Origin: Eledone cirrhosa
Taxonomy: Eukaryota
Assembly (NCBI GenBank): GCA_964016885.1
Contig: OZ024741.1
Span: 258,106,001-258,170,000, forward strand
Reading direction: 5' to 3'
DNA: 64,000 bases
A program made the position numbers and the translations under genes. The notes beneath the pieces are model-generated. The model was not told where the DNA came from and ran no database searches. It saw only the letters and a program-made list of their open reading frames with translations. Position 1 is the stretch's first letter, and each line of letters opens with the position of its first letter. Shown here piece after piece: positions 4,841-63,211 of this stretch.

Positions 4841-4909
4841 AAATAACAAATAGACGCGGTTTCAAATCTCTATGCTTTTCAAATTCATTACATTAATCTT
4901 TATTTATAC
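4841..4909 (+). repeat. 69-bp AT-rich spacer, copy 1 (reference form AAATAACAAATAGACGCGGTTTCAAATCTCTATGCTTTTCAAATTCATTACATTAATCTTTATTTATAC)
   Basis: Read directly; 17/69 G+C; lies between GACTTACGA and GTTTCGCTTTACGAG. Confidence 0.97.
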
Positions 4910-6118
4910 GTTTCGCTTTACGAGTGTTTCGACTTACGAGTGTTTCGACATACGAGTGTTTCGACTTACGAATGTTTTTGCTTACGGGTGTTTCGACTTA
5001 CGAATGTTTTTGCTTACGAGTGTTTCGGTTTACGAGTGTTCCGACTTACGAGTGTTCCGACTTACGAGTGTTTCGGCTTACGAGTGTTTCCGGCTTACGA
5101 GTGTTTCGACTTACGAGTGTTTCGACTTACGAGTGTTTTGACTTACGGTGTTTCGGCTTACGAGTGATTAGACTTACGAGTGTTTTGACTTACGGGTGTT
5201 TTGACTTACGGGTGTTGTGAATTACGAGTGTTCTGATTTACGAGTGTTTTGACTTACGGTGTTTCGGCTTACAAGTGATTCGACTTACGAATGTTTTGAC
5301 TTACGGGTGTTTCGGCTTGCGTGTGTTTCGACTTACGAGTGTTTCGGCTTATGAGTGTTTCGACTTACTAATGTTTTTACTTACGAGTGTTTCGGCGTAC
5401 GAGTGTTTTGACTTACGAGTGATTCGACTTACGAGTGTTTTGACGTACGAATATTTTGACTTACGGGTGTTTCGGCTTACGAGTGTTTCGACTTACGAGT
5501 GTTTCGGCTTTCGAGTGTTTCGACTTACTAATGTTTTTACTTACGAGTGTTTCGGCGTACGAGTGTTTCGACTTACGAGTGTTTCGACTTACGGGTGTTT
5601 TGACTTACGGGTGTTTCGGCTTACGAGTGTTTCGACTTACAAGTGTTTTGACTTAAGGGTGTTTCGACTTACGAGTGTTTCGACTTACGAGTGTTTCGAC
5701 TTACGGGTGTTTCGACTTACGAGTGTTTTGGCTTACGGTGTTTCGACTTACGAGTGTTTCGGCTTACGAGTGTTTTGACTTAAAGGTGTTTCGACTTACG
5801 AGTGTTTCGATACGAGTGTTTCGACTTACGAGTGTTTCGGCTTACGAGTGTTTCGACTTACGACTGTTTCGACTTACGAGTGTTCTGTTTTACGGATGTT
5901 TCGAAATACGAGTGTTTCGACTTACGAGTGTTTCGACTTACGAGTGTTTTGACTTACGGGTGTTTTGACATACGAGTGTTTCGATACGAGTGTTTCGACT
6001 TACGAGTGTTCTGACTTACGATTGTTCTGACTTACGAGAGTTCTGACTTACGAGTGTTCCGACTTTACGAGTGTTTCGGCTCACGAGTGTTTCGGCTTAC
6101 GAGTGTTTCGACTCACGA

Positions 6119-6187
6119 AAATAACAAATAGACGCGGTTTCAAATCTCTATGCTTTTCAAATTCATTACATTAATCTTTATTTATAC
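6119..6187 (+). repeat. 69-bp spacer, copy 2
   Basis: Reference form, preceded by variant GACTCACGA. Confidence 0.95.
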
Positions 6188-8062
6188 GTTTCGCTTTACG
6201 AGTGTTTCGACTTACGAGTGTTTCGGCTTACGAGTGTTTTGACTTACGAGTGTTTTGACTTACATGTGTTTCGACTTACGCGTGTTTCGACTTACGAGTG
6301 TTTTGACTTGCGAGTGTTTCGACTACGGGTGTTTCGACTTACGAATGTTTTGACTTACGGATGTTTTGACTTACGGGTGTTTCGGCTTACGAGTGTTTCG
6401 ACTTACGAGTGTTTCGACTTACGAGTGTTTTGACTTACGAGTGTTTTGACTTACGGTGTTTCGGCTTACGAGTGTTTCGACTTACGAGTGTTTTGACTTA
6501 CGGGTGTTTTGACATACGAGTGTTTCGATACGAGTGTTCTGACTTACGAGTGTTCTGACTTACGAGTGTTTCCGCTTACGAGTGTTTCGGCTTACGAGTG
6601 TTTCGACTTACTAATGTTTTTACTTACGAGTGTTTCGGTGTACGAGTGTTTCGACTGAAGGATGTTTAGACTTACGAGTGTTTCGACTTACGATTGTTTC
6701 GGCTTACGTGTGTTTCGACTTACGAGTGTTCTGACTTACAAGTGTTCTTACTTACGAGTGTTCCGACTTACGAGTGTTCCGACTTACGAGTGTTTCGGCT
6801 TACGAGTGTTGCGGCTTACGAGTGTTTCGACTTACGAGTGTTCCGACTTACGGGTGTTTCGACTTACGAGTATTTTGGCTTACGGTGTTTCGGCTTACGA
6901 GTGTTTCGAGTTACGAGAGTTTTGACTTACGCGTGTTTTGACATACGAGTGTTTCGATACGAGTGTTCTGACTTACGAGTGTTCTGACTTACGAGTGTTC
7001 TGAGTTACGAGTGTTCTGACTTACGAGTGTTCCGACTTTACGAGTGTTTCGGCTCACGAGTGTTTCGACTTACGAGTGTTTCGACATACGAGTGTTTCGG
7101 CTTACGAGTGTTTTTATTTACGAGTGTTTTGACTTACGGGTGCTTCGACTTACGCGTGTTTCGACTTACGAGTGTTTCGACTTACGAGTGTTTCGACTTA
7201 CGAGTGTTTCTGCTTACGAGTGTTTTGACTTACGAGTGTTTCGGCTGGCGAGTGTTTCGACTTACGAGTGTTTTGACTTAAGGGTGTTTCGACTTACGAG
7301 TGTTTTGACTTACGAGTGTTTCGACTTACGAGTGTTTCGGCTTACGAGTGTTTTGACTTACGAGTGTCTCGGCTTACGAGTGTTTCGGCTTACGAGTGTT
7401 TCGACTTACGAGTGTTTCGACTTACGAGTGTTCCGACTTACGTGTGTTTCGACTTACGAGTGTTTTGGCTTACGGTGTTTCGACTTACGAGTGTTTCGGC
7501 TTACGAGTGTTTTGACTTAAGGGTGTTTCGACTTACGAGTGTTTCGATACGAGTGTTTCGACTTACGAGTGTTTCGGCTTACGAGTGTTTCGACTTACGA
7601 GTGTTTCGACTTACGAGTGTTCTGATTTACGGATGTTTCGACATACGAGTGTTTCGACTTACGAGTGTTTCGACTTACGAGTGTTTTGACTTACGTGTGT
7701 TTTGACATACGAGTGTTTGGATACGAGTGTTCTGACTTACGATTGTTCTGACTTACGAGCGTTCTGACTTACGAGTGTTTTGGCTTACGAGTGTTTCGGC
7801 TTACGAGTGTTTCGACTTACGAGTGTTTCGACTTACGAGTGTTCCGACTTACGGGTGTTTCGACTTACGAGTGTTTTGGCTTACGGTGTTTCGACTTACG
7901 AGTGTTTCGAGTTAAGAGTGTTTTGACTTACGCGTGTTTTGACATACGAGTCTTCTGACTTACGAGTGTTCTGACTTACGAGTGTTCTGACTTACGAGTC
8001 TTCCGACTTTACGAGTGTTTCGGCTCACGAGTGTTTCGGCTTACGAGTGTTTCGACTTACGA

Positions 8063-8131
8063 AAATAACAAATAGACGCGGTTTCAAATCTCTATGCTTT
8101 TCAAATTCATTACATTAATCTTTATTTATAC
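8063..8131 (+). repeat. 69-bp spacer, copy 3
   Basis: Reference form; copy 1 + 3222. Confidence 0.95.
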
Positions 8132-9339
8132 GTTTCGCTTTACGAGTGTTTCGACTTACGAGTGTTTCGACATACGAGTGTTTCGACTTACGAATGTTTT
8201 TGCTTACGGGTGTTTCGACTTACGAATGTTTTTGCTTACGAGTGTTTCGGTTTACGAGTGTTCCGACTTACGAGTGTTCCGACTTACGAGTGTTTCGGCT
8301 TACGAGTGTTTCCGGCTTACGAGTGTTTCGACTTACGAGTGTTTCGACTTACGAGTGTTTTGACTTACGGTGTTTCGGCTTACGAGTGATTAGACTTACG
8401 AGTGTTTTGACTTACGGGTGTTTTGACTTACGGGTGTTGTGAATTACGAGTGTTCTGATTTACGAGTGTTTTGACTTACGGTGTTTCGGCTTACAAGTGA
8501 TTCGACTTACGAATGTTTTGACTTACGGGTGTTTCGGCTTGCGTGTGTTTCGACTTACGAGTGTTTCGGCTTATGAGTGTTTCGACTTACTAATGTTTTT
8601 ACTTACGAGTGTTTCGGCGTACGAGTGTTTTGACTTACGAGTGATTCGACTTACGAGTGTTTTGACGTACGAATATTTTGACTTACGGGTGTTTCGGCTT
8701 ACGAGTGTTTCGACTTACGAGTGTTTCGGCTTTCGAGTGTTTCGACTTACTAATGTTTTTACTTACGAGTGTTTCGGCGTACGAGTGTTTCGACTTACGA
8801 GTGTTTCGACTTACGGGTGTTTTGACTTACGGGTGTTTCGGCTTACGAGTGTTTCGACTTACAAGTGTTTTGACTTAAGGGTGTTTCGACTTACGAGTGT
8901 TTCGACTTACGAGTGTTTCGACTTACGGGTGTTTCGACTTACGAGTGTTTTGGCTTACGGTGTTTCGACTTCGAGTGTTTCGGCTTACGAGTGTTTTGAC
9001 TTAAAGGTGTTTCGACTTACGAGTGTTTCGATACGAGTGTTTCGACTTACGAGTGTTTCGGCTTACGAGTGTTTCGACTTACGACTGTTTCGACTTACGA
9101 GTGTTCTGTTTTACGGATGTTTCGAAATACGAGTGTTTCGACTTACGAGTGTTTCGACTTACGAGTGTTTTGACTTACGGGTGTTTTGACATACGAGTGT
9201 TTCGATACGAGTGTTTCGACTTACGAGTGTTCTGACTTACGATTGTTCTGACTTACGAGAGTTCTGACTTACGAGTGTTCCGACTTTACGAGTGTTTCGG
9301 CTCACGAGTGTTTCGGCTTACGAGTGTTTCGACTCACGA

Positions 9340-9408
9340 AAATAACAAATAGACGCGGTTTCAAATCTCTATGCTTTTCAAATTCATTACATTAATCTTT
9401 ATTTATAC
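9340..9408 (+). repeat. 69-bp spacer, copy 4
   Basis: Reference form, preceded by GACTCACGA; copy 2 + 3221. Confidence 0.95.
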
Positions 9409-9962
9409 GTTTCGCTTTACGAGTGTTTCGACTTACGAGTGTTTCGGCTTACGAGTGTTTTGACTTACGAGTGTTTTGACTTACATGTGTTTCGACTTAC
9501 GCGTGTTTCGACTTACGAGTGTTTTGACTTGCGAGTGTTTCGACTACGGGTGTTTCGACTTACGAATGTTTTGACTTACGGATGTTTTGACTTACGGGTG
9601 TTTCGGCTTACGAGTGTTTCGACTTACGAGTGTTTCGACTTACGAGTGTTTTGACTTACGAGTGTTTTGACTTACGGTGTTTCGGCTTACGAGTGTTTCG
9701 ACTTACGAGTGTTTTGACTTACGGGTGTTTTGACATACGAGTGTTTCGATACGAGTGTTCTGACTTACGAGTGTTCTGACTTACGAGTGTTCTGCCTTAC
9801 GAGTGTTCTGACATACGTGTGTTCTGACTTACGAGTGTTCCGATTTACGAGTGTTTCGGCATATGAGTGTTTCGACTTACGGATGTTTTTGCTTACGGGT
9901 GTTTCGACTTACGAATGTTTTTGCTTACGAGTGTTTCGGCTTACGAGTGTTTCGACTTACGA

Positions 9963-10031
9963 AAATAACAAATAGACGCGGTTTCAAATCTCTATGCTTT
10001 TCAAATTCATTACATTAATCTTTATTTACAC
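9963..10031 (+). repeat. 69-bp spacer, copy 5
   Basis: TTTACAC end variant. Confidence 0.95.
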
Positions 10032-10745
10032 GTTTCGCTTTACGAGTGTTTCGACTTACGAGTGTTTCGACTTACGAGTGTTTCGACTTACGAGTGTTTC
10101 GACTTACGAGTGTTTCGACTTACGAGTGTTTCGACTTACGAGTGTTTTGACTTACGAGTGTTCTGACTTACGAGTGTTCTGACTTACGAGTGTTTCGACT
10201 TACGAGTGTTCTGACTTACGAGTGTTCTGACTTACGAATGTTCCGACTTACGAGTGTTTCGACTTACGAGTGTTTCGACTTACGAGTGTTTCCACTTACG
10301 AGTGTTTCGGCTTACGAGTGTTTTGACTTACGAGTGTTCTGACTACGAGTGTTCTGACTTACGAGTGTTTCGGCTTATGAGTGTTTCGACATACGAGTGT
10401 TTCGGCTTATGAGTGTTTCGACTTACGAGTGTTTCGGCTTACGAGTGTTTCGACTTACGAGTGTTTAGACTTACAAGTGTTTCGACTTACGGGTGTTTCG
10501 ACTTACGAGTGTTTCGACTACGAGTGTTTCGACTTACGAGTGTTTCGGCTTACGAGTGTTTCGACATACGGGTGTTTCGACTTACGGTGTTTCGGCTTAC
10601 GAGTGTTTCGATACGAGTGTTCTGACTTACGAGTGTTCTGACTTACGAGTGTTCTGACTTACGAGTGTTCTGACTTACGAGTGTTCCGACTTTACGAGTG
10701 TTTCGGCTCACGAGTGTTTCGGCTTACGAGTGTTTCCACTTACGA

Positions 10746-10814
10746 AAATAACAAATAGACGCGGTTTCAAATCTCTATGCTTTTCAAATTCGTTACATTA
10801 TTCTTTATTTATAC
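10746..10814 (+). repeat. 69-bp spacer, copy 6
   Basis: CGTTACATTATTC variant, preceded by TTCCACTTACGA. Confidence 0.95.
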
Positions 10815-13068
10815 GTTTCGCTTTACGAGTGTTTCGACTTACGAGTGTTTCGACATACGAGTGTTTCGGCTTACGAGTGTTTTAATTTACGAGTGTTTTG
10901 AATTACGGGTGCTTCGACTTACGCGTGTTTCGACTTACGAGTGTTTCGACTTACGAGTGTTTCGACTTACGAGTGATTCGACTTACGAATGTTTTGACTT
11001 ACGGGTGTTTCGGCTTGCGAGTGTTTCGACTTACGAGTGTTTCGGCTTATGAGTGTTTCGACTTACTAATGTTTTTACTTACGAGTGTTTCGGCGTACGA
11101 GTCTTTTGACTTACGAGTGTTTCGACTTACGAGTGTTTTGACTTACGAGTGTTTCGACTTACGCGTGTTTCGGCTTACGAGTGTTTCGACTTACGAGTGT
11201 TTCGGCTGGCGAGTGTTTCGACTTACGAGTGTTTTGACTTAAGGGTGTTTCGACTTACGAGTGTTTCGACTTACGAGTGTTTCGACTTACGAGTGTTTCG
11301 GCTTACGAGTGTTTTGACTTAAGGGTGTTTCGACTTACGAGTGTTTCGATACGAGTGTTTCGACTTACGAGTGTTCTGACTTACGATTGTTCTGACTTAC
11401 GAGCGTTCTGACTTACGAGTGTTCTGACTTACGAGTGTTTCGGCTTACGAGTGTTTCGGCTTACGAGTGTTTCGACTTACGAGTGTTTCGACTTACGAGT
11501 GTTCCGACTTACGGGTGTTTCGACTTACGAGTGTTTCCGCTTACGAGTGTTTCGACTTACGAGTGTTTTGACTTAAGGGTGTTTCGACTTACGTGTGTTT
11601 TGACTTACGAGTGTTTCGACTTACGAGTGTTTCGGAATACGAGTGTTTTGACTTGAGGGTTTTCGACTTACGAGCGTTTCGATACGAGTGTTTCGACTTA
11701 CGAGTGTTCTGACTTACGAATGTTCTGATTTACGGATGTTTCGACACACGAGTGTTTCGAATTACGAGTGTTTCGACTTAAGAGTGTTTTGACTTACGGG
11801 TGTTTTGACATACGAGTGTTCTGACTTACGAGTGTTCTGACTTACGAGTGTTCTGACTTACGAGTGTTCTGACTTACGAGTGTTCCGACTTTACGAGTGT
11901 TTCGGCTCACGAGTGTTTCGACTTACGAGTGTTTCGACTTACGAGTGTTTCGACTTACGGGTGTTTTGACTTACGGGTGTTTCCGCTTACGAGTGTTTCG
12001 ACTTACGAGTGTTTTGACTTAAGGGTGTTTCGACTTACGTGTGTTTTGACTTACGAGTGTTTCGACTTACGAGTGTTTCGGAATACGAGTGTTTTGACTT
12101 GAGGGTTTTCGACTTACGAGTGTTTCGATACGAGTGTTTCGACTTACGAGTGTTCTGACTTACGAGTGTTCTGATTTACGGATGTTTCGACACACGAGTG
12201 TTTCGAATTACGAGTGTTTCGACTTAAGAGTGTTTTGACTTACGGGTGTTTTGACATACGAGTGTTTCGATACGAGTGTTTCGACTTACGAGTGTTCTGA
12301 CTTACGAGTGTTCTGACTTACGAGTGTTCTGAATTACGAGTGTTCTTACTTACGAGTGTTCCGACTTACGAGTGTTTCGGCTTACGAGTGTTTCGACTTA
12401 CGAGTGTTCCGACTTACGGGTGTTTCGACTTACGAGTGTTTTGGCTTACGAGTGTTTCGAGTTACGAGTGTTTTGACTTACGCGTGTTTTGACATACGAG
12501 TGTTTCGATACGAGTGTTCTGACTTACGAGTGTTCTGACTTACGAGTGTTCTGACTTACGAGTGTTTCGACTTACGAGTGTTCTGACTTACGAGTGTTCT
12601 GACTTACGAATGTTCCGACTTACGAGTGTTTCGACTTACGAGTGTTTCGACTTACGAGTGTTTCGACTTACGAGTGTTTCGGCTTACGAGTGTTTTGACT
12701 TACGAGTGTTCTGACTACGAGTGTTCTTACTTACGAGTGTTTCGGCTTATGAGTGTTTCGACTTACGAGTGTTTCGGCTTATGAGTGTTTCGACTTACGA
12801 GTGTTTCGACTTACGGGTGTTTCGACTTACGATTGTTTCGACTACGAGTGTTTCGACTTACGAGTGTTTCGGCTTACGAGTGTTTCGACATACGGGTGTT
12901 TCGACTTACGGTGTTTCGGCTTACGAGTGTTTCGATGCGAGTGTTCTGACTTACGAGTGTTCTGACTTACGAGTGTTCTGACTTACGAGTGTTCTGAATT
13001 ACGAGTGTTCCGACTTTACGAGTGTTTCGGCTCACGAGTGTTTCGGTTACGAGTGTTTCGACTTACGA

Positions 13069-13137
13069 AAATAACAAATAGACGCGGTTTCAAATCTCTA
13101 TGCTTTTCAAATTCATTACATTAATCTTTATTTATAC
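13069..13137 (+). repeat. 69-bp spacer, copy 7
   Basis: Reference form, upstream GGTTACG 15-mer. Confidence 0.95.
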
Positions 13138-14849
13138 GTTTCGCTTTACGAGTGTTTCGACTTACGAGTGTTTCGACATACGAGTGTTTCGGCTTACGAG
13201 TGTTTTGATTTACGAGTGTTTTGACTTACGGGTGCTTCGACTTACGCGTGTTTCGACTTACGAGTGATTCGACTTACGAATGTTTTGACTTACGGGTGTT
13301 TCGGCTTGCGAGTGTTTCGACTTACGAGTGTTTCGGCTTATGAGTGTTTCGACTTACTAATGTTTTTACTTATGAGTGTTTCGGCGTACGAGTGTTTTGA
13401 CTTACGAGTGTTTCGACTTACGAGTGTTTTGACTTACGAATGTTTTGACTTACGGGTGTTTCGGCTTACGAGTGTTTCGACTTACGAGTGTTTCGGCTGG
13501 CGAGTGTTTCGGCTTACGAGTGTTTTGACTTAAGGGTCTTTCGACTTACGAGTGTTTCGACTTACGAGTGTTTCGACTTACGAGTGTTTCGGCTTACGAG
13601 TGTTTTGACTTAAGGGTGTTTCGACTTACGAGTGTTTCGATACGAGTGTTTCGACTTACGAGTGTTCTGACTTACGAGTGTTCCGACTTACGAGTGTCTC
13701 GGCTTACGAGTGTTTCCGCTTACGAGTGTTTCGACTTACGAGTGTTTCGACTTACGAGTGTTCCGACTTACGGGTGTTTCGACTTACGAGTGTTTTGGCT
13801 TACGGTGTTTCGACTTACGAGTGTTTCGGCTTACGAGTGTTTTGACTTAAGGGTGTTTAGACTTACGAGTGTTTCGATACGAGTGTTTCGACTTACGAGT
13901 GTTCTGACTTACGATTGTTCTGACTTACGCGCGTTCTGACTTACGAGTGTTCTGACTTACGAGTGTTCTGACTTACGAGTGTTCCTACTTTACGAGTGTT
14001 TCGGCTCACGAGTGTTTCGACTTACGAGTGTTTCGACATACGAGTGTTTCGACTTACGAATGTTTTTGCTTACGGGTGTTTCGACTTACGAATGTTTTTG
14101 CTTACGAGTGTTTCGGTTTACGAGTGTTCCGACTTACGAGTGTTTCGGCTTACGAGTGTTTCGACTTACGAGTGTTTCGACTTACGAGTGTTTTGACTTA
14201 CGGTGTTTCGGCTTACGAGTGATTAGACTTACGAGTGTTTTGACTTACGGGTGTTTTGACTTACAGGTGTTGTGAATTACGAGTGTTCCGATTTACGAGT
14301 GTTTTGACTTACGGTGTTTCGGCTTACACGTGATTCGACTTACGAATGTTTTGACTTACGGGTGTTTCGGCTTGCGAGTGTTTCGACTTACGAGTGTTTC
14401 GAATTACGAGTGTTTTGACTTACGAATGTTTTGACTTACGGGTGTTTCGGCTTACGAGTGTTTCGACTTACGAGTGTTTCGGCTTGCGAGTGTTTCGACT
14501 TACTAATGTTTTTACTTACGAGTGTTTCGGCGTACGAGTGTTTCGACTTACGAGTCTTTCGACTTACGGGTGTTTTGAATTATGGGTGTTTCGGCTTACG
14601 AGTGTTTCGACTTACGAGTGTTTTGACTTAAGGGTGTTTCGACTTACGAGTGTTTCGACTTACGAGTGTTTCGACTTACGAGTGTTTCAGATTACGAGTG
14701 TTTTGACTTGAGGGTTTCCGACTTACGAGTGTTTCGATACGAGTGTTTCGACTTACGAGTGTTCTGATTTACGGATGTTTCGACACACGAGTGTTTCGAA
14801 TTACGAGTGTTTCGACTTACGAGTGTTTTGACTTAAGGGTGTTTTGACA

Positions 14850-15990
14850 TACGAGTGTTTCGATACGAGTGTTTCGACTTACGAGTGTTCTGACTTACGA
14901 TTGTTCTGACTTACGAGTGTTCTTACTTACGAGTGTTCGGACTTACGAGTGTTTCGGCTTACGAGTGTTTCGACTTACGAGTGTTCCGACTTACGGGTGT
15001 TTCGACTTACGAGTGATTCGACTTACGAATGTTTTGACTTACGGGTGTTTCGGCTTGCGAGTGTTTCCTCTTACGAGTGTTTCGACTTACGAGTGTTTTG
15101 ACTTACGAATGTTTTGACTTACGGGTGTTTCGGCTTACGAATGTTTCGACTTACGAGTGTTTCGGCTTGCGAGTGTTTCGACTTACTAATGTTTTTACTT
15201 ACGAGTGTTTCGGCGTACGAGTGTTTCGACTTACGAGTGTTTCGACTTACGGGTGTTTTGACTTACGGGTGTTTCGGCTTACGAGTGTTTCGACTTACGA
15301 GTGTTTTGACTTAAGGGTGTTTCGACTTATGAGTGTTTCGACTTACGAGTGTTTCGACTTACGAGTGTTTCGGATTACGAGTGTTTCGACTTACGGGTGT
15401 TTTGACTTACGGGTGTTTCGGCTTACGAGTGTTTCGACTTACGAGTGTTTTGACTTAAGGGTGTTTCGACTTACGAGTGTTTCGACTTACGAGTGTTTCG
15501 ACTTACGAGTGTTTCGACTTACGAGTGTTTCGGATTACGAGTGTTTTGACTTGAGGGTTTTCGACTTACGAGTGTTTCGATACGAGTGTTTCGACTTACG
15601 AGTGTTCTGACTTACGATTGTTCTGACTTACGAGTGTTCTTACTTACGAGTGTTCCGACTTACGAGTGTTTCGGCTTACGAGTGTTTCGACTTACGAGTG
15701 TTCCGACTTACGGGTGTTTCGACTTACGAGTGATTCGACTTACGAATGTTTTGACTTACGGGTGTTTCGGCTTGCGAGTGTTTCGACTTACGAGTGTTTC
15801 GACTTACGAGTGTTTTGACTTACGAATGTTTTGACTTACGGGTGTTTCGGCTTACGAGTGTTTCGACTTACGAGTGTTTCGGCTTGCGAGTGTTTCGACT
15901 TACTAATGTTTTTACTTCCGAGTGTTTCGGCGTACGAGTGTTTCGACTTACGAGTGTTTCGACTTACGGGTGTTTTGACTTACGGGTGTT
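14850..15990 (+). repeat. 717-bp period internal duplication, also at about 30230-31370 and about 35820-36960
   Basis: 14869/15586, 15077/15794; 30247/30964; 35838/36555. Confidence 0.85.
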
Positions 15991-16318
15991 TCGACACACG
16001 AGTGTTTCGAATTACGAGTGTTTCGACTTACGAGTGTTTAGACTTACAAGTGTTTCGACTTACGGGTGTTTCGACTTACGAGTGTTTCGACTACGAGTGT
16101 TTCGACTTACGAGTGTTTCGGCTTACGAGTGTTTCGACATACGGGTGTTTCGACTTACGGTGTTTCGGCTTACGAGTGTTTCGATACGAGTGTTCTGACT
16201 TACGAGTGTTCTGACTTACGAGTGTTCTGACTTACGAGTGTTCTGACTTACGAGTGTTCCGACTTTACGAGTGTTTCGGCTCACGAGTGTTTCGGCTTAC
16301 GAGTGTTTCCACTTACGA

Positions 16319-51507: not shown

Positions 51508-53394
51508 GTTTCGCTTTACGAGTGTTTCGACTTACGAGTGTTTCGACTTACGAGTGTTTCGGCTTACGAGTGTTTTGACTTACGAGTGTTTCGGCTGGCG
51601 AGTGTTTCGACTTACGAGTGTTTTGACTTAATGGTGTTTCGACTTACGAGTGTTTCGACTTACGAGTGTTTCGACTTACGAGTGTTTCGGCTTACGAGTG
51701 ATTTGACTTAAGGGTGTTTCGACTTACGAGTGTTTCGATACGAGTGTTTCAAATTACGAGTGTTCTGACTTACGAGTGTTCCGACTTACGAGTGTCTCGG
51801 CTTACGAGTGTTTCGATACGAGTGTTTCGACTTACGAGTGTTCGGCTTACGAGTGTTTCGACTTACGAGTGTTTCGACTTACGAGTGTTCTGATTTACGG
51901 TTGTTTCGACATACGAGTGTTTCGACTTACGAGTGTTTCGACTTACGAGTGTTTTGACTTACGTGTGTTTTGACATACGAGTGTTTCGATACGAGTGTTT
52001 CGACTTACGAGTGTTCTGACTTACGATTGTTCTGACTTACGAGCGTTGTGACTTACGAGTGTTTCGGCTTACGAGTGTCTCGGCTTACGAGTGTTTCGAC
52101 TTACGAGTGTTTCGACTTACGAGTGTTCCGACTTACGGGTGTTTCGACTTACGAGTGTTTTGGCTTACGGTGTTTCGACTTACGAGTGTTTCGAGTTAAG
52201 AGTGTTTTGACTTAAGCGTGTTTTGACATACGAGTGTTCTGACTTACGAGTGTTCTGACTTACGAGTGTTCTGACTTACGAGTGTTCTGACTTACGAGTG
52301 TTCTGACTTACGAGTGTTCCGACTTTAGCGTGTTTCGGCTCACGAGTGTTTCGGCTTACGAGTGTTTCCGGCTTACGAGTGTTTCGACTTACGAGTGTTT
52401 CGACTTACGAGTGTTTTGACTTACGGTGTTTCGGCTTACGAGTGATTAGACTTACGAGTGTTTTGACTTACGGGTGTTTTGACTTACGGGTGTTGTGAAT
52501 TACGAGTGTTCCGATTTACGAGTGTTTTGACTTACAGTGTTTCGGCTTACAAGTGATTCGACTTACGAATGTTTTGACGTACGGGTGTTTCGGCTTGCGA
52601 GTGTTTCGACTTACGAGTGTTTCAACTTACGAGTGTTTCGGCTTATGAGTGTTTCGACTTACTAATGTTTTTACTTACGAGTGTTTCGGCGTACGAGTGT
52701 TTTGACATACGAGTGTTTCGACTTACGAGTGTTTTGACTTACGAATGTTTTGACTTACGGGTGTTTCGGCTTACGAGTGTTTCGACTTACGAGTGTTTCG
52801 GCGTGCGAGTGTTTCGACTCACTAATGTTTTTACTTACGAGTGTTTCGGCGTACGAGTGTTTCGACTTACGAGTGTTTCGACTTACGGGTGTTTCGGCTT
52901 ACGAGTGTTTCGACTTACTAGTGTTTTGACTTAAGGGTGTTTCGACTTACGAGTGTTCCGACTTACGAGTGTTTCGACTTACGAGTGTTTCGGATTACGA
53001 GTGTTTTGACTTGAGGGTTTTCGACTTACGAGTGTTTCGATACGAGTGTTTCGACTTACGAGTGTTCTGACTTACGAGTGTTCTGATTTACGGATGTTTC
53101 GACACACGAGTGTTTCGAATTACGAGTGTTTCGACTTACGAGTGTTTTGACTTGCGGGTGTTTTGACATACGAGTGTTTCGATACGAGTGTTTTGACTTA
53201 CGAGTGTTCTGACTTACGAGTGTTCTGACTTACGAGTGTTCTGACTTACGAGTGTTCTTACTTACGAGTGTTCCGACTTACGAGTGTTTCGGCTTACGAG
53301 TGTTTCGACTTACGAGTGTTCCGACTTACGGATGTTTCGACTTACGAGTGTTTTGGCTTACGGTGTTTCGGCTTACGAGTGTTTCGACTTACAA

Positions 53395-53463
53395 AAATAA
53401 CAAATAGACGCGGTTTCAAATCTCTATGCTTTTCAAATTCATTACATTAATCTTTATTTATAC
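53395..53463 (+). repeat. 69-bp spacer, copy 24
   Basis: Preceded by GACTTACAA. Confidence 0.95.
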
Positions 53464-55421
53464 GTTTCGCTTTACGAGTGTTTCGACTTACGAGTGTTTC
53501 AAAATACGAGTGTTTCGGCTTACGAGTGTTTTGATTTACGAGTGTTTTGACTTACGGGTGCTTCGACTTACGCGTGTTTCGACTTACGAGTGTTTCGACT
53601 TACGAGTGTTTCGACTTACGAGTGTTTCGGCTTACGAGTGTTTTGACTTACGAATGTTTTGACATACGATTGTTTCGGCTTACGAGTGTTTCGACTTACG
53701 AGTGTTCTGACTACGAGTGTTCTGACTTACGGGTGTTCTGACTTACGAGTGTTCCGACTTACGAGTGTTTCGGCTTATGAGTGTTCCGACTTACGAGTGT
53801 TTCGGCTTACGGGTGTTTCGACGTACGAGTATTTTTGGCTTACGAGTGTTTCGACTTACGAGTGTTTTGAATTACGATTGTTTCGGCTTACGAGTGTTTC
53901 GACTTACGAGTATTTCGACTTACGAGTGTTTTGACTTATGGGGGTTTTGACATACGAGTGTTTCGATACGAATGCTCTGACTTACGAGTGTTCTGACTTA
54001 CGAGTGTTCTGACTTACGAGTGTTCTGACTTACGGGTGTTCTGACTTACGTGTGTTCCGACTTACGAGTGTTTCGGCTATGGGTGTTTCGACTTACGAGT
54101 GTTTCGACTTACGAATCTTTTGGCTTACGAGCTTTTCGGCTTACGAGTGTTTCGACTTACGAATGTTTTGGCTTACGAGTGTTTCGGCTTACGGGTGTTT
54201 CGACTTACGAGTGTTTCGACTTACGAGTGTTTTGACTTACGGTGTTTCGGCTTACGAGTTATTCGACATACGAGTGTTTCGATTTACGGGTGTTTCGACT
54301 TACGGGTGTTTCGACTTACGAGTGTTTCGACTTATGAGTGTTTCGACTTACGAGTGTTCTGACTTACGAGTGTTCTGACTTACGAGTGTTCCGACTTACG
54401 AGTGTTTAGGTTTACGAGTGTTTCGACACACGAATGTTTTGACTTACGGGTGTTTCGACTTACGGGTGTTTCGACTTACGAGTGTTTCGGCTTACGAGTG
54501 TTTCGACTTACTAATGTTTTTACTTACGAGTCTTTCGGTGTACGAGTGTTTCGACAGAAGGATGTTTCGATTTACGAGTGTTTCGACTTACGAGTGTTTC
54601 GGCTTACGTGAGTTTCGACTTAAGAGTGTTCTGATTTACGAGTGTTCTGACTTGCGGGTGTTCTGATTTACGAGTGTTCCGACTTACGAGTGTTTCGGCT
54701 TACGAGTGTTTCGCCTTGTGGGTGTTTCGACTTACGAGTGTTTTTACTTACGGTGTTTCGGCTACGAGTGTTTCGACATACGAGTGTTTTGACTTACGGG
54801 TGTTTCGACTTACGAGTGTTTTGACTTACGAATGTTTTGACTTACGGGTGTTTCGGCTTACGAGTGTTTCGACTTACGAGTGTTTCGGCTTACGAGTGTT
54901 TCGACTTAATAATGTTTTTACTTACGAGTGTTTCGGCGTACGAGTGTTTCGACTTACGAGTGTATCGACTTACGGGTGTTTTGACTTACGGGTGTTTCGG
55001 CTTACGAGTGTTTTGACTTAAGGGTGTTTCGACTTACGAGTATTTTTGGCTTACGAGTGTTTCGACTTACGAGTGTTTTGACTTACGAGTGTTCTGATTT
55101 ACGGATGTTTCGACATACGAGTGTTCAGATTTACGAGTGGTCCGACTTACGAGTGTTTCGACTTACGAGTGTTTCGACTTACGAGTGTTTTGACTTACGG
55201 TGTTTCGGCTTACGAGTGTTTCGACTTACGAGTGTTTTGACTTACTGGTGTTTTGACATACGAGTGTTTCGATACGAGAGTTTCGACTTACGAGTGTTCT
55301 GACTTACGAGTGTTCTAACTTACGAGTGTTCTGACTTACGAGTGTTCTGACTTACGAGTGTTCCGACTTACGAGTGTTTCGGCTCACGAGTGTTTCGGCT
55401 TACGAGTGTTTCGACTTACGA

Positions 55422-55490
55422 AAATAACAAATAGACGCGGTTTCAAATCTCTATGCTTTTCAAATTCATTACATTAATCTTTATTCATAT
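55422..55490 (+). repeat. 69-bp spacer, copy 25
   Basis: TTCATAT end variant. Confidence 0.95.
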
Positions 55491-56045
55491 GTTTCGCTTT
55501 ACGAGTGTTTCGACTTACGAGTGTTTCGACTTACGAGTGTTTCGGCTTACGAGTGTTTTGACTTACGAGTGTTTTGACTTACATGTGTTTCGACTTACGC
55601 ATTTTTCGACTTACGAGTGTTTCGACTTACGAGTGTTTTGACTTACGGATGTTTTGACTTACGGGTGTTTCGGCTTACGAGTGTTTCGACTTACGAGTGT
55701 TTCGACTTACGAGTGTTTTGACTTACGAGTGTTTTGACTTACGGTGTTTCGGCTTACGAGTGTTTCGACTTACGAGTGTTTTGACTTACGGGTGTTTTGA
55801 CATACGAGTGTTTCGATACGAGTGTTCTGACTTACGAGTGTTCTGACTTACGAGTGTTCTGACTTACGAGTGTTCTGACTTACGAGTGTTCTGACATACG
55901 TGTGTTCTGACTTACGAGTGTTCCGATTTACGAGTGTTTCGCCATATGAGTGTTTCGACTTACGAATGTTTTTGCTTACGGGTGTTTCGACTTACGAATG
56001 TTTTTGCTTACGAGTGTTTCGGCTTACGAGTGTTTCGACTTACGA

Positions 56046-56112
56046 AAATAACAAATAGACGCGGTTTCAAATCTCTGCTTTTCAAATTCATTACATTAAT
56101 CTTTATTTACAC
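56046..56112 (+). repeat. Spacer, copy 26 (67 bp)
   Basis: 2-bp deletion (ATCTCTGC) plus TTTACAC end. Confidence 0.95.
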
Positions 56113-57002
56113 GTTTCGCTTTACGAGTGTTTCGACTTACGAGTGTTTCGACTTACGAGTGTTTCGACTTACGAGTGTTTCGACTTACGAGTGTTCTGAA
56201 TAACGAGTGTTCTGACTTACGAGTGTTTCGACTTACGAGTGTTCTGACTTAGGAGTGTTCTGACTTACGAGTGTTCCGACTTACGAGTGTTTCGACTTAC
56301 GAGTGTTTCGACTTACGAGTGTTTCGACTTACGAGTGTTTCGGCTTACGAGTGTTTTGACTTACGAGTGTTCTGACTACGAGTGTTCTGACTTACGAGTG
56401 TTTCGGCTTATGAGTGTTTCGACTTACGATTGTTTCGGCTTATGAGTGTTTCGACTTACGAGTGTTTCGGCTTACGAGTGTTTCGACTTACGAGTGTTTC
56501 GACTTACGAGTGTTTCGGCTTACGAGTGTTTCGACATACGGGTGTTTCGACTTACGGTGTTTAGGCTTACGAGTGTTTCGACTTACGAGTGTTCTGACTT
56601 ACGAGTGTTCTGACTTATGAGTGTTCTGACTTACGAGTGTTCTGACTTACGAGTGTTCCGACTTACGAGTGTTTCGGCTTACGAGTGTTTCGGCTTACGA
56701 GTGTTTCGACTTACGAGTGTTCTGACTTACGAGTGTTCTGACTTATGAGTGTTCTGACTTACGAGTGTTCTGACTTACGAGTGTTTCGACTTACGAGTGT
56801 TTCGACTTACGAGTGTTTTGACTTACTGGTGTTTTGACATACGAGTGTTTCGATACGAGTGTTTCGACTTACGAGTGTTCTGACTTACGAGTGTTCTAAC
56901 TTACGAGTGTTCTGACTTACGAGTGTTCTGACTTACGAGTGTTCCGACTTACGAGTGTTTCGACTCACGAGTGTTTCGGCTTACGAGTGTTTCGACTTAC
57001 GA

Positions 57003-57071
57003 AAATAACAAATAGACGCGGTTTCAAATCTCTATGCTTTTCAAATTCATTACATTAATCTTTATTTATAC
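57003..57071 (+). repeat. 69-bp spacer, copy 27
   Basis: Reference form followed by GTTTTGCTTT. Confidence 0.95.
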
Positions 57072-58941
57072 GTTTTGCTTTACGAGTGTTTCGACTTACG
57101 AGTGTTTCGACTTACGAGTGTTTCGGCTTACGAGTGTTTCGACTTACGAGTGTTTCGACTTACGAGTGTTTTGACTTACTGGTGTTTTGACATACGAGTG
57201 TTTCGATACGAGTGTTTCGACTTACGAGTGTTCTGACTTACGAGTGTTCTGACTTACGAGTGTTTCGACTTACGAGTGTTCTGACTTACGAGTGTTCTGA
57301 CTTACGAATGTTCCGACTTACGAGTGTTTCGACTTACGAGTGTTTTGACTTACGAGTGTTTCGACTTACGAGTGTTTCGGCTTACGAGTGTTTTGACTTA
57401 CGAGTGTTCTGACTACGAGTGTTCTGACTTACGAGTGTTTCGGCTTATGAGTGTTTCGACTTACGAGTGTTTCGGCTTATGAGTGTTTCGACTTACGAGT
57501 GTTTCGGCTTACGAGTGTTTCGACTTACGAGTGTTTCGACTTACGAGTGTTTCGACTTACGGGTGTTTCGACTTACGAGTGTTTCGACTACGAGTGTTTC
57601 GACTTACGAGTGTTTCGACTTACGAGTGTTTCGACATACGGGTGTTTCGACTTACGGTGTTTCGGCTTACGAGTGTTTCGATACGAGTGTTCTGACTTAC
57701 GAGTGTTCTGACTTACTAGTGTTCTGACTTACGAGTGTTCTGACTTACGAGTGTTTCGGTGTACGAGTGTTTCGACTTAAGGATGTTTCGACTTACGAGT
57801 GTTTTGACTTACGAGTGTTTCGGCTGGCGAGTGTTTCGACTTACGAGTGTTTTGACTTAATGGTGTTTCGACTTACGAGTGTTTCGACTTACGAGTGTTT
57901 CGACTTACGAGTGTTTCGGCTTACGAGTGATTTGACTTAAGGGTGTTTCGACTTACGAGTGTTTCGATACGAGTGTTTCAAATTACGAGTGTTCTGACTT
58001 ACGAGTGTTCCGACTTACGAGTGTCTCGGCTTACGAGTGTTTCGATACGAGTGTTTCGACTTACGAGTGTTCGGCTTACGAGTGTTTCGACTTACGAGTG
58101 TTTCGACTTACGAGTGTTCTGATTTACGGTTGTTTCGACATACGAGTGTTTCGACTTACGAGTGTTTCGACTTACGAGTGTTTTGACTTACGTGTGTTTT
58201 GACATACGAGTGTTTCGATACGAGTGTTTCGACTTACGAGTGTTCTGACTTACGATTGTTCTGACTTACGAGCGTTGTGACTTACGAGTGTTTCGGCTTA
58301 CGAGTGTCTCGGCTTACGAGTGTTTCGACTTACGAGTGTTTTGACTTACGAATGTTTTGACTTACGGGTGTTTCGGCTTACGAGTGTTTCGACTTACGAG
58401 TGTTTCGGCTTACGAGTGTTTCGACTTAATAATGTTTTTACTTACGAGTGTTTCGGCGTACGAGTGTTTCGACTTACGAGTGTATCGACTTACGGGTGTT
58501 TTGACTTACGGGTGTTTCGGCTTACGAGTGTTTTGACTTAAGGGTGTTTCGACTTACGAGTATTTTTGGCTTACGAGTGTTTCGACTTACGAGTGTTTTG
58601 ACTTACGAGTGTTCTGATTTACGGATGTTTCGACATACGAGTGTTCAGATTTACGAGTGGTCCGACTTACGAGTGTTTCGACTTACGAGTGTTTCGACTT
58701 ACGAGTGTTTTGACTTACGGTGTTTCGGCTTACGAGTGTTTCGACTTACGAGTGTTTTGACTTACTGGTGTTTTGACATACGAGTGTTTCGATACGAGAG
58801 TTTCGACTTACGAGTGTTCTGACTTACGAGTGTTCTAACTTACGAGTGTTCTGACTTACGAGTGTTCTGACTTACGAGTGTTCCGACTTACGAGTGTTTC
58901 GGCTCACGAGTGTTTCGGCTTACGAGTGTTTCGACTTACGA

Positions 58942-59010
58942 AAATAACAAATAGACGCGGTTTCAAATCTCTATGCTTTTCAAATTCATTACATTAATCT
59001 TTATTCATAT
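58942..59010 (+). repeat. 69-bp spacer, copy 28
   Basis: Copy 25 + 3520. Confidence 0.95.
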
Positions 59011-59565
59011 GTTTCGCTTTACGAGTGTTTCGACTTACGAGTGTTTCGACTTACGAGTGTTTCGGCTTACGAGTGTTTTGACTTACGAGTGTTTTGACTT
59101 ACATGTGTTTCGACTTACGCATTTTTCGACTTACGAGTGTTTCGACTTACGAGTGTTTTGACTTACGGATGTTTTGACTTACGGGTGTTTCGGCTTACGA
59201 GTGTTTCGACTTACGAGTGTTTCGACTTACGAGTGTTTTGACTTACGAGTGTTTTGACTTACGGTGTTTCGGCTTACGAGTGTTTCGACTTACGAGTGTT
59301 TTGACTTACGGGTGTTTTGACATACGAGTGTTTCGATACGAGTGTTCTGACTTACGAGTGTTCTGACTTACGAGTGTTCTGACTTACGAGTGTTCTGACT
59401 TACGAGTGTTCTGACATACGTGTGTTCTGACTTACGAGTGTTCCGATTTACGAGTGTTTCGCCATATGAGTGTTTCGACTTACGAATGTTTTTGCTTACG
59501 GGTGTTTCGACTTACGAATGTTTTTGCTTACGAGTGTTTCGGCTTACGAGTGTTTCGACTTACGA

Positions 59566-59632
59566 AAATAACAAATAGACGCGGTTTCAAATCTCTGCTT
59601 TTCAAATTCATTACATTAATCTTTATTTACAC
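59566..59632 (+). repeat. Spacer, copy 29 (67 bp)
   Basis: Copy 26 + 3520. Confidence 0.95.
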
Positions 59633-60522
59633 GTTTCGCTTTACGAGTGTTTCGACTTACGAGTGTTTCGACTTACGAGTGTTTCGACTTACGAGTGTTT
59701 CGACTTACGAGTGTTCTGAATAACGAGTGTTCTGACTTACGAGTGTTTCGACTTACGAGTGTTCTGACTTAGGAGTGTTCTGACTTACGAGTGTTCCGAC
59801 TTACGAGTGTTTCGACTTACGAGTGTTTCGACTTACGAGTGTTTCGACTTACGAGTGTTTCGGCTTACGAGTGTTTTGACTTACGAGTGTTCTGACTACG
59901 AGTGTTCTGACTTACGAGTGTTTCGGCTTATGAGTGTTTCGACTTACGAGTGTTTCGGCTTATGAGTGTTTCGACTTACGAGTGTTTCGGCTTACGAGTG
60001 TTTCGACTTACGAGTGTTTCGACTTACGAGTGTTTCGGCTTACGAGTGTTTCGACATACGGGTGTTTCGACTTACGGTGTTTAGGCTTACGAGTGTTTCG
60101 ACTTACGAGTGTTCTGACTTACGAGTGTTCTGACTTATGAGTGTTCTGACTTACGAGTGTTCTGACTTACGAGTGTTCCGACTTACGAGTGTTTCGGCTT
60201 ACGAGTGTTTCGGCTTACGAGTGTTTCGACTTACGAGTGTTCTGACTTACGAGTGTTCTGACTTATGAGTGTTCTGACTTACGAGTGTTCTGACTTACGA
60301 GTGTTTCGACTTACGAGTGTTTCGACTTACGAGTGTTTTGACTTACTGGTGTTTTGACATACGAGTGTTTCGATACGAGTGTTTCGACTTACGAGTGTTC
60401 TGACTTACGAGTGTTCTAACTTACGAGTGTTCTGACTTACGAGTGTTCTGACTTACGAGTGTTCCGACTTACGAGTGTTTCGACTCACGAGTGTTTCGGC
60501 TTACGAGTGTTTCGACTTACGA

Positions 60523-60591
60523 AAATAACAAATAGACGCGGTTTCAAATCTCTATGCTTTTCAAATTCATTACATTAATCTTTATTTATAC
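60523..60591 (+). repeat. 69-bp spacer, copy 30
   Basis: Copy 27 + 3520. Confidence 0.95.
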
Positions 60592-63142
60592 GTTTTGCTT
60601 TACGAGTGTTTCGACTTACGAGTGTTTCGACTTACGAGTGTTTCGGCTTACGAGTGTTTCGACTTACGAGTGTTTCGACTTACGAGTGTTTTGACTTACT
60701 GGTGTTTTGACATACGAGTGTTTCGATACGAGTGTTTCGACTTACGAGTGTTCTGACTTACGAGTGTTCTGACTTACGAGTGTTTCGACTTACGAGTGTT
60801 CTGACTTACGAGTGTTCTGACTTACGAATGTTCCGACTTACGAGTGTTTCGACTTACGAGTGTTTTGACTTACGAGTATTTCGACTTACGAGTGTTTCGG
60901 CTTACGAGTGTTTTGACTTACGAGTGTTCTGACTACGAGTGTTCTGACTTACGAGTGTTTCGGCTTATGAGTGTTTCGACTTACGAGTGTTTCGGCTTAT
61001 GAGTGTTTCGACTTACGAGTGTTTCGGCTTACGAGTGTTTCGACTTACGAGTGTTTCGACTTACGAGTGTTTCGACTTACGGGTGTTTCGACTTACGAGT
61101 GTTTCGACTACGAGTGTTTCGACTTACGAGTGTTTCGACTTACGAGTGTTTCGACATACGGGTGTTTCGACTTACGGTGTTTCGGCTTACGAGTGTTTCG
61201 ATACGAGTGTTCTGACTTACGAGTGTTCTGACTTACTAGTGTTCTGACTTACGAGTGTTCTGACTTACGAGTGTTTCGGTGTACGAGTGTTTCGACTTAA
61301 GGATGTTTCGACTTACGAGTGTTTTGACTTACGAGTGTTTCGGCTGGCGAGTGTTTCGACTTACGAGTGTTTTGACTTAATGGTGTTTCGACTTACGAGT
61401 GTTTCGACTTACGAGTGTTTCGACTTACGAGTGTTTCGGCTTACGAGTGATTTGACTTAAGGGTGTTTCGACTTACGAGTGTTTCGATACGAGTGTTTCA
61501 AATTACGAGTGTTCTGACTTACGAGTGTTCCGACTTACGAGTGTCTCGGCTTACGAGTGTTTCGATACGAGTGTTTCGACTTACGAGTGTTCGGCTTACG
61601 AGTGTTTCGACTTACGAGTGTTTCGACTTACGAGTGTTCTGATTTACGGTTGTTTCGACATACGAGTGTTTCGACTTACGAGTGTTTCGACTTACGAGTG
61701 TTTTGACTTACGTGTGTTTTGACATACGAGTGTTTCGATACGAGTGTTTCGACTTACGAGTGTTCTGACTTACGATTGTTCTGACTTACGAGCGTTGTGA
61801 CTTACGAGTGTTTCGGCTTACGAGTGTCTCGGCTTACGAGTGTTTCGACTTACGAGTGTTTCGACTTACGAGTGTTCCGACTTACGGGTGTTTCGACTTA
61901 CGAGTGTTTTGGCTTACGGTGTTTCGACTTACGAGTGTTTCGAGTTAAGAGTGTTTTGACTTAAGCGTGTTTTGACATACGAGTGTTCTGACTTACGAGT
62001 GTTCTGACTTACGAGTGTTCTGACTTACGAGTGTTCTGACTTACGAGTGTTCTGACTTACGAGTGTTCCGACTTTAGCGTGTTTCGGCTCACGAGTGTTT
62101 CGGCTTACGAGTGTTTCCGGCTTACGAGTGTTTCGACTTACGAGTGTTTCGACTTACGAGTGTTTTGACTTACGGTGTTTCGGCTTACGAGTGATTAGAC
62201 TTACGAGTGTTTTGACTTACGGGTGTTTTGACTTACGGGTGTTGTGAATTACGAGTGTTCCGATTTACGAGTGTTTTGACTTACAGTGTTTCGGCTTACA
62301 AGTGATTCGACTTACGAATGTTTTGACGTACGGGTGTTTCGGCTTGCGAGTGTTTCGACTTACGAGTGTTTCAACTTACGAGTGTTTCGGCTTATGAGTG
62401 TTTCGACTTACTAATGTTTTTACTTACGAGTGTTTCGGCGTACGAGTGTTTTGACATACGAGTGTTTCGACTTACGAGTGTTTTGACTTACGAATGTTTT
62501 GACTTACGGGTGTTTCGGCTTACGAGTGTTTCGACTTACGAGTGTTTCGGCGTGCGAGTGTTTCGACTCACTAATGTTTTTACTTACGAGTGTTTCGGCG
62601 TACGAGTGTTTCGACTTACGAGTGTTTCGACTTACGGGTGTTTCGGCTTACGAGTGTTTCGACTTACTAGTGTTTTGACTTAAGGGTGTTTCGACTTACG
62701 AGTGTTCCGACTTACGAGTGTTTCGACTTACGAGTGTTTCGGATTACGAGTGTTTTGACTTGAGGGTTTTCGACTTACGAGTGTTTCGATACGAGTGTTT
62801 CGACTTACGAGTGTTCTGACTTACGAGTGTTCTGATTTACGGATGTTTCGACACACGAGTGTTTCGAATTACGAGTGTTTCGACTTACGAGTGTTTTGAC
62901 TTGCGGGTGTTTTGACATACGAGTGTTTCGATACGAGTGTTTTGACTTACGAGTGTTCTGACTTACGAGTGTTCTGACTTACGAGTGTTCTGACTTACGA
63001 GTGTTCTTACTTACGAGTGTTCCGACTTACGAGTGTTTCGGCTTACGAGTGTTTCGATTACGAGTGTTCCGACTTACGGATGTTTCGACTTACGAGTGTT
63101 TTGGCTTACGGTGTTTCGGCTTACGAGTGTTTCGACTTACAA

Positions 63143-63211
63143 AAATAACAAATAGACGCGGTTTCAAATCTCTATGCTTTTCAAATTCATTACATTAATC
63201 TTTATTTATAC
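63143..63211 (+). repeat. 69-bp spacer, copy 31
   Basis: Copy 24 + 9748. Confidence 0.95.

What the first reader, a model, noticed from the sequence alone, without database searches (positions are those of the whole stretch)
4841..63211. Composite satellite: a 16-bp monomer array punctuated by 31 near-identical 69-bp AT-rich spacers at one fixed register
Seen: every spacer sits at GACTTAC(G/A)A|spacer|GTTTC, taking the place of the monomer's GT. It is always followed by the diagnostic monomer GCTTTA(C/T)GA and always has the same orientation. Copies differ from the reference by about 0-3 nt. Gaps run from 623 to 6930 bp, about one per 2 kb. Inference: all copies descend from one ancestral junction and spread by array recombination, so the real repeat unit is 'spacer + variable-length monomer tract'. 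No truncated copy was seen, which is compatible with a function such as a protein loading site, nucleosome-free gap or promoter, but also with recent amplification. I do not recognise this satellite family.
Basis: partly seen in the sequence, partly recalled or inferred. Interest (0 to 1): 0.75.

Follow-up and report, generated by a model that had tools for sequence, protein, structure and literature searches.

The report
Transposon fragment punctuating its own satellite
The 69-base spacer and the 16-base repeat are neighbouring inner parts of a small jumping gene (a Helitron) scattered through this genome, and the roughly five-megabase satellite likely grew out of one such element, carrying the spacer along as a likely functionless passenger.

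Summary
Observation confirmed: 31 spacers (29 of 69 bp, 2 of 67 bp), one register, one strand, gaps 623-6930 bp. The spacer is not array-specific. Outside arrays, spacer plus 2-4 monomers form the inside of a dispersed ~500-bp Helitron-type element (TC start, hairpin-CTAG end; 147 exact hits). The chromosome-2 array begins with that element's 5' end, carrying an 8-bp deletion that every array spacer shares, and tracts run out into its 3' body. Intermediates survive: an element with 14 monomers, and on contig C4 an element holding three spacers in 2.3 kb that shares the array's derived changes. One duplication junction was likely multiplied about 2,000-fold by kilobase-scale recombination. Spacers vary less than flanks raw (P=0.012), but not after removing variants importable from other monomers (P=0.2-0.5). 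Genome counts fit one ~5-Mb block plus small satellites, not one array per chromosome. Residual: short gaps are rare. Helitron-born satellites are known, and this scan has already noted the Helitron origin of this same array in other windows. New member of a known kind, with an unusually complete trail.

The parts
1..63997 (+). 16-bp satellite array (consensus GTTTCGACTTACGAGT), part of a ~5-Mb domain on G000 C2; equals the inner repeat of a dispersed Helitron-type element
   Evidence: (3862 parsed monomers, 270 distinct types)
4841..4909 (+). spacer 1 (reference): 5'-proximal inner segment of the Helitron, founder form with 8-bp deletion
4910..4925 (+). the 'diagnostic' monomer = first monomer of the dispersed element, follows all 31 spacers
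6119..6187 (+). spacer 2
8063..8131 (+). spacer 3
9340..9408 (+). spacer 4
9963..10031 (+). spacer 5
10746..10814 (+). spacer 6
13069..13137 (+). spacer 7
16319..16387 (+). spacer 8
23249..23317 (+). spacer 9 (in a 5980-bp block duplicated at offset ~15,187 from spacer 3)
24527..24595 (+). spacer 10
25150..25218 (+). spacer 11
25933..26001 (+). spacer 12
28240..28308 (+). spacer 13
31697..31765 (+). spacer 14
33814..33882 (+). spacer 15
37730..37798 (+). spacer 16
40683..40751 (+). spacer 17
41909..41977 (+). spacer 18
43622..43690 (+). spacer 19
44405..44473 (+). spacer 20
47086..47154 (+). spacer 21
49414..49482 (+). spacer 22
51439..51507 (+). spacer 23
53395..53463 (+). spacer 24
55422..55490 (+). 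spacer 25 (spacers 25-27 recur as 28-30 at offset 3520)
56046..56112 (+). spacer 26 (67 bp, 2-bp deletion)
57003..57071 (+). spacer 27
58942..59010 (+). spacer 28
59566..59632 (+). spacer 29 (67 bp, 2-bp deletion)
60523..60591 (+). spacer 30
63143..63211 (+). spacer 31

Best explanation
The spacer is the stretch of a small dispersed Helitron-type transposon that lies directly upstream of its 2-4 inner 16-bp repeats, and the array likely grew from one copy of that element, multiplying the spacer as a likely neutral passenger. Shown: the dispersed element; an array start that is the element's 5' end with an 8-bp deletion shared by all array spacers; array tracts that run into the element's 3' body; intermediates with 14 monomers and with 3 spacers in 2.3 kb. 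Inferred order: (1) a copy lost 8 bp and its monomers expanded and diversified; (2) one tandem duplication (or circle formation) joined a monomer back to the A-run before the spacer, with one base of overlap, giving a unit of about 0.7-0.8 kb; (3) this composite element landed at more than one site; (4) the C2 copy grew to about 5 Mb by kilobase-scale unequal exchange or break-induced copying, which keeps register and strand and cannot cut inside a spacer except against another spacer; (5) pieces moved to C1.
For: 19 of 20 fetched dispersed C1 hits (20 of 28 listed) are the same element with spacer then monomers; element-type 32-mer has 147 exact hits, 70 +/77 -; 27 of 27 elements end palindrome-CTAG (hairpin z -6.7). 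Founder junction (5' end + 8-bp deletion + spacer) occurs 4 times in the genome: three C2 array starts whose ~7-kb upstream flanks are 96.6-99.6% identical, and one C4 element. The C4 copy holds 3 spacers 723 and 691 bp apart and ends in the full compound 3' end. 8 of 8 array-linked 3' bodies examined share a G>A change absent from 27 of 27 dispersed bodies. An ordinary element on C2 has 14 monomers. Upstream monomer order is shared by 24 of 31 window junctions; blocks of 2.1-6.0 kb are duplicated. Spacer alleles 38 of 207 possible versus 38.4-41.4 expected from flanks after removing importable variants, P=0.51 and 0.20. Two independent counts imply 5.2-5.4 Mb of array in the whole genome, which the C2 block accounts for (21 of 29 position-picked samples across 8.35 Mb).
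Against: Uncorrected, spacers carry fewer alleles than flanks (38 seen, 47.3 expected, P=0.012; 1.3% vs 2.2% per site). Gaps are more even than random placement (minimum 623, P=5e-5; CV 0.68, P=0.02); only 4 of 139 sampled gaps are under 500 bp, which my toy neutral model reaches only with ~3-kb duplication-only events (median 8.5%, 10-90% range 1.7-31%) and not with short events. Monomers are further from consensus (4.2% at quiet sites, 9.2% overall) than spacers (1.3%). A precedes the TC start in only 6 of 26 copies. No autonomous partner with matching ends in 8 RepHel loci tested. The right end of the block abuts another satellite and an assembly gap.
Confidence: 0.78

Rival explanations
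1. The 16-bp satellite is older; the Helitron captured three monomers from it, and a Helitron copy later recombined into the array and donated the spacer and 3' body.
For: Monomers are 3-7 times further from consensus than spacers. Capture of pre-existing tandem repeats by Helitrons and MITEs is described (PMC12628747 section 4).
Against: All 3 array starts found are Helitron 5' ends in the right order and strand, and 5' end, spacers, diversified monomers and 3' end sit inside one element on C4. An ordinary element expanded its monomers on its own. Every array examined (C2 main, C2 240.96 Mb, C1, C4) carries spacers. Zero differences in 69 bp between founder and array spacers allows up to about 4% elapsed divergence, so the monomer excess is no contradiction (arithmetic, 3/69).
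Confidence: 0.08
2. The spacer is kept by selection as a centromere-protein loading site, nucleosome-poor gap or promoter, spaced about every 1-2 kb.
For: 75% AT; 0 truncated copies among 197 detected; short gaps are rare; raw conservation excess P=0.012; the block is a multi-satellite, strand-flipping domain of more than 8 Mb.
Against: Corrected conservation test is null even though 10 loci had been picked for a perfect spacer; changes are spread along the spacer with no invariant core longer than 8 bp. Spacer density runs from 0 to 9 per 10 kb. Counts leave no room for such arrays on the other chromosomes. No fold (z +1.5) and no Rfam match near threshold.
Confidence: 0.07
3. The Helitron's own RepHel made the array as a rolling-circle concatemer of truncated elements and inserted it in one step.
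For: A circle of spacer plus tract would give exactly this junction (inference); first units are of similar size, 675-787 bp, at four founder-like loci; RepHel genes with open frames over 1000 aa exist in the genome; the mechanism is described for plants (Xiong 2016 as summarised in PMC12628747).
Against: Units lack the 5' terminus where rolling-circle copying starts (founder junction only 4 times against about 1,700 exact spacer hits); tract lengths run from 554 to 6861 bp with nested duplicated blocks; 3' bodies occur many times inside the block. It may explain the first few units but not the megabases.
Confidence: 0.07

Closest known systems
Satellites from central tandem repeats of non-autonomous Helitron-superfamily elements: oyster Cg_HINE/Cg170 (PMC7492417, passages) and Drosophila DINE-TR1 (only as cited in PMC12628747 and the table of PMC9659126)
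   Same: Dispersed element with a GTCY-type microsatellite near the 5' end, short inner tandem repeats and a 3' palindrome; the same repeat also forms long arrays; one-sided intermediates exist.
   Different: Ends are TC and CTAG (HLE1 type), not subterminal inverted repeats; the monomer is 16 bp against 140-180 bp; a piece of the element's unique sequence is kept about every 2 kb inside the array.
Tandem arrays of truncated Helitrons in plant centromeric regions (Xiong, Dooner and Du 2016; paper not held, seen only as summarised in PMC12628747)
   Same: 5'-proximal Helitron sequence amplified far more than 3' sequence; inner repeats implicated.
   Different: Units here lack the 5' terminus, are over 96% minisatellite, vary more than tenfold in length, number about 2,000, and 3' bodies also recur.
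Canonical non-autonomous Helitron (HLE1/Helitron1; definition in PMC11417382, passages)
   Same: TC start with TA-rich run, hairpin and CTAG end, stacked compound elements with alternative ends.
   Different: No autonomous partner identified; A|T target only partly seen because most copies are fused to other Helitron modules.
miDNA4 MITE satellite model in Xenopus (Scalvenzi and Pollet, as summarised in PMC12628747)
   Same: Inner repeat present as one, several or many copies, leading to free arrays.
   Different: Tc1/mariner MITE with inverted ends; no retained periodic spacer described in the passage read.

Membership tests
Non-autonomous HLE1 Helitron (source element) | 5' TC terminus | tested here: met
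   26 of 27 elements start TC at a boundary where upstream contexts differ; the C4 copy has lost it. The search used the terminus motif, so the boundary rests.
Non-autonomous HLE1 Helitron (source element) | 3' hairpin followed by CTRR | tested here: met
   27 of 27 end in CTAG after a palindrome; fold z -6.7 for the module end, z +0.6 for the short hairpin of the compound end.
Non-autonomous HLE1 Helitron (source element) | Insertion between A and T | tested here: inconclusive
   T follows CTAG in 27 of 27, but as the start of the next Helitron head; A precedes TC in 6 of 26, G in 19 (one fixed join to an upstream module), T in 1. For 5 of the 6 the unbroken A-T site is visible in homologous sequence.
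Non-autonomous HLE1 Helitron (source element) | Ends shared with an autonomous RepHel element | tested here: inconclusive
   PF14214 over cut-off at 150 of 150 scored places; 0 of 8 long-frame loci tested have matching ends around their gene. 8 of 3704 candidates only.
Non-autonomous HLE1 Helitron (source element) | No target-site duplication | not tested
   True outer 5' ends of the compound elements were not mapped.
HINE/DINE-1 (HLE2, Helentron-associated) | T|T insertion and inverted-repeat ends instead of TC...CTRR | tested here: not met
   Ends are TC and CTAG; definitions from PMC11417382 and PMC7492417. Subterminal inverted repeats were not searched for separately.
HINE/DINE-1 (HLE2, Helentron-associated) | 5' GTCY-type microsatellite and central tandem repeats | tested here: met
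   Seen directly.
Rolling-circle arrays of truncated Helitrons (Xiong type) | Many 5' ends, one 3' end | tested here: not met
   Founder 5' junction 4 times genome-wide; 3' bodies repeated inside the block.
Pan-centromeric satellite | A large array on every chromosome | tested here: not met
   Indirect: genome totals imply 5.2-5.4 Mb, matched by the C2 block; C1 holds about 90 kb. Hits beyond the first 100 are not listed by place.
Pan-centromeric satellite | CENP-A occupancy | not testable with these tools
   No chromatin data.

The most novel reading that the evidence does not exclude
A spacer-punctuated unit was built inside a still-mobile Helitron, seeded several sites, stayed 2.3 kb on C4 but grew 2,000-fold on C2 into that chromosome's working centromere, where the evenly spaced AT-rich transposon fragments are now kept as loading sites: a centromere traceable to one transposon copy.
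Probability: 0.06. Interest if true: 0.78.

Novelty: new member of a known kind. Interest (0 to 1): 0.36.

Why it matters
Satellite birth from Helitron inner repeats is established, but the founder is usually lost. Here each stage survives in one assembly: 2-4 monomers, 14 monomers, a 2.3-kb three-spacer element, a 4-kb piece, a 90-kb array and a ~5-Mb domain, tied together by an 8-bp deletion and a point change. The ~2,000 spacers are unique-sequence markers inside a minisatellite and can be used to measure recombination tract length and mutation rate in the array, and the C4 and C2 sisters give a natural test of whether chromosomal context decides which seed grows.

Tried and rejected
Rfam on the spacer: 2 chance-level matches far below gathering scores. 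Spacer folding: none. CpG decay as the main source of monomer variety: rejected, C>T at position 5 is 35% but G>A at position 6 under 1%. Sequencing runs: no RNA holder listed, which says nothing on expression. Runs labelled as other organisms hold monomer contigs; X5 has the array joint and X7 a spacer piece with 0 differences at depth 5-10, which could be trace carry-over or shared sequence; X4, X6 and X8 show monomers without cover of most of the spacer, but a hole proves nothing with this tool, so none of it was used as evidence. An exact pattern for array 3' ends found only the locus it came from. Megablast self-comparison of the window printed nothing; replaced by a monomer-token comparison. 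Autonomous partner: none among 8 loci. Literature: no paper holds the monomer or spacer strings; searches for cephalopod or octopus Helitron satellites gave nothing relevant by title; a search to confirm the host group from a SINE string gave 0; one search found no matching architecture by title or abstract. Xiong 2016 is not held. Dfam, Repbase and nt are not available.
Full report
1. Observation. The window is one 16-bp array. The only non-monomer stretches of 8 bp or more are 31 copies of the spacer, all on the + strand: 29 of 69 bp and 2 of 67 bp, 8 haplotypes, 17 identical to the first, 623-6930 bp apart. They fill 3.3% of the window. Raw reads of another sample with the same species label show the monomer-to-spacer joint (14 reads, about 8 starts) and the longer, undeleted form (9 reads) (X21).

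2. The spacer outside arrays. The window lies at G000 C2 258.106-258.170 Mb of a 3.0-Gb genome. An exact 21-mer of the spacer occurs 1896 times, control 0, including 28 lone hits along C1 in both orientations. I fetched 20 of those 28; 19 are one element and 1 is another family that shares only the spacer's first part. The element runs: TC start with a TA-rich run, GTCT-type microsatellite, spacer, the GCTTT monomer, 1-3 further monomers, about 300 bp of body, a long palindrome and CTAG. Of 28 loci surveyed, 26 gave 27 elements; 27 of 27 end in CTAG, 26 start with TC, 24 have 2-4 monomers. The element-type 32-mer has 147 exact hits, 70 + and 77 -, the first 100 listed on C1-C4. These are HLE1 Helitron ends as defined in PMC11417382 (passages). 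Elements are stacked head to tail with other Helitron modules, so the A|T target rule could be seen only in part (6 of 26 at the 5' side). The genome holds RepHel genes, but none of 8 tested has matching ends.

3. The array's ends. The C2 block starts at 254.735 Mb with the element's 5' end, minus its first few bases, followed by an 8-bp deletion, the spacer and monomers. That deletion gives the exact start of every array spacer. The founder junction occurs 4 times in the genome: three times in the C2 block behind the same ~7-kb flank (96.6-99.6% identical), so one insertion copied by segmental duplication, and once on C4. Tracts run into the element's 3' body at C2 240.96, 257.40, 258.91-258.94 and 260.50 Mb. 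The array junction joins a monomer after ...TTACG to the A-run before the spacer with one base of overlap. The block ends at 263.085 Mb against a 39-bp satellite and a gap. The ~90-kb C1 array has no Helitron ends but shares spacer variants with C2 257-261 Mb, so it is likely a moved piece.

4. Intermediates. An ordinary element at C2 80.56 Mb has 14 monomers. The C4 copy at 114.05 Mb has the 8-bp deletion, about 140 diversified monomers, 3 spacers 723 and 691 bp apart, the body and the compound CTAG end. All 8 array-linked bodies compared carry a G>A change found in 0 of 27 dispersed bodies; the C4 and 240.96-Mb bodies have only that change, while the 6 main-block bodies have 4-5 more. The C4 copy also keeps 5' bases that the C2 starts have lost. 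It therefore cannot come from today's C2 ends; both likely descend from a composite element that already held the junction. That it moved by Helitron transposition is inferred; no empty site was seen.

5. Growth. The same monomer order precedes 24 of 31 junctions, and blocks of 2.1-6.0 kb are duplicated with few mismatched monomers. This fits one junction formed after the tract had diversified, then copied in kilobase blocks. In-register exchange keeps strand and register, and a spacer can pair only with another spacer, which accounts for 0 truncated copies among 197 detected (detection needed an 11-bp seed). Two counts, scaled by twenty 10-kb samples, give 5.2 and 5.4 Mb of array genome-wide; 21 of 29 position-picked samples across the 8.35-Mb C2 block are this satellite, so the block accounts for the total. 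64 of 81 sampled spacers match the 21-mer exactly, which puts the total near 2,000.

6. Selection test. I pooled 197 spacers, dropped 4 founder-type copies and 7 rows with shifted flanks, leaving 186 (84 haplotypes); 10 source loci had been picked for a perfect spacer, which favours finding conservation. Stratified by base class, spacers show 38 alleles against 47.3 expected (P=0.012). Setting aside flank alleles common among monomers (2% or 1%), which exchange can import, gives 41.4 (P=0.20) and 38.4 (P=0.51). Smaller earlier sets gave the raw excess too. Array spacers are 1.3% from consensus, dispersed bodies 1.3%. Against my reading: gaps are more even than random, 4 of 139 are under 500 bp, and a toy neutral model gives this only with duplications of about 3 kb; the window's 30 gaps fall into about 19 size classes, so they are not independent. 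Monomers are further from consensus (4.2-9.2%) than spacers.

7. Comparison. Growth of Helitron inner repeats into satellites, one-sided intermediates and rolling-circle arrays are reviewed in PMC12628747 (passages and the first part of section 4); oyster Cg_HINE in PMC7492417 (passages); Xenopus Helitron arrays in PMC12001565 (passages); DINE in the table of PMC9659126 (passages). The element works like these but has HLE1 ends, and the array is not the many-5'-ends type. No held paper contains the monomer or spacer strings; repeat databases could not be searched. Five earlier notes of this scan on other windows of the same block reach the same Helitron origin; I had reached it before the look-up, and they are not independent support.

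8. Verdict. Real, explained, most likely neutral. New member of a known kind; interest 0.36 for the completeness of the trail.

Noticed in passing
L015 640-1380; L067; L098; L158-L161 (C2 257.40, 260.50, 258.91-258.94 Mb): A second amplified junction: ~740-bp islands of the element's 3' body plus the head of another Helitron module, leading back into monomers; the counterpart of the spacer.
   Followed up: partly
L059, L062, L021, L022, L066, L133, L154 (C2 254.70-263.09 Mb): A 36-39-bp satellite alternates with the 16-mer, joined without linker; 45-, 37-, 57- and 97-bp satellites lie in or beside the block, and the 16-mer flips strand at 258.9-260.0 Mb.
   Followed up: no
L055, L056, L058 (C1 279.30-279.41 Mb): The C1 array sits between a ~10-bp and a ~25-bp satellite near an assembly gap, a second satellite-rich site.
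   Followed up: no
one search hits on C16, C19, C20, C27: Near-identical RepHel segments recur about every 100-150 kb along C20 and C27, suggesting very long tandem units.
   Followed up: no
L140-L142 (C2 86.72-86.79 Mb): A small subfamily with a different segment before the spacer and the same monomers and body; other copies have the main element inserted at an A-T site inside that subfamily's spacer.
   Followed up: partly
L158, + strand about 3900-5540: The Helitron body ending the minus-strand array is cut off by an open frame that by recall resembles a Penelope-type retroelement; not tested.
   Followed up: no
L117 6157-10000: An unbroken 1718-codon frame with Helitron_like_N and STPR repeats, behind a TC start: a candidate intact autonomous Helitron.
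   Followed up: partly
L011 (C2 240.96 Mb): The 4-kb mini-array begins directly at a long (TA)n run with no Helitron 5' end.
   Followed up: partly
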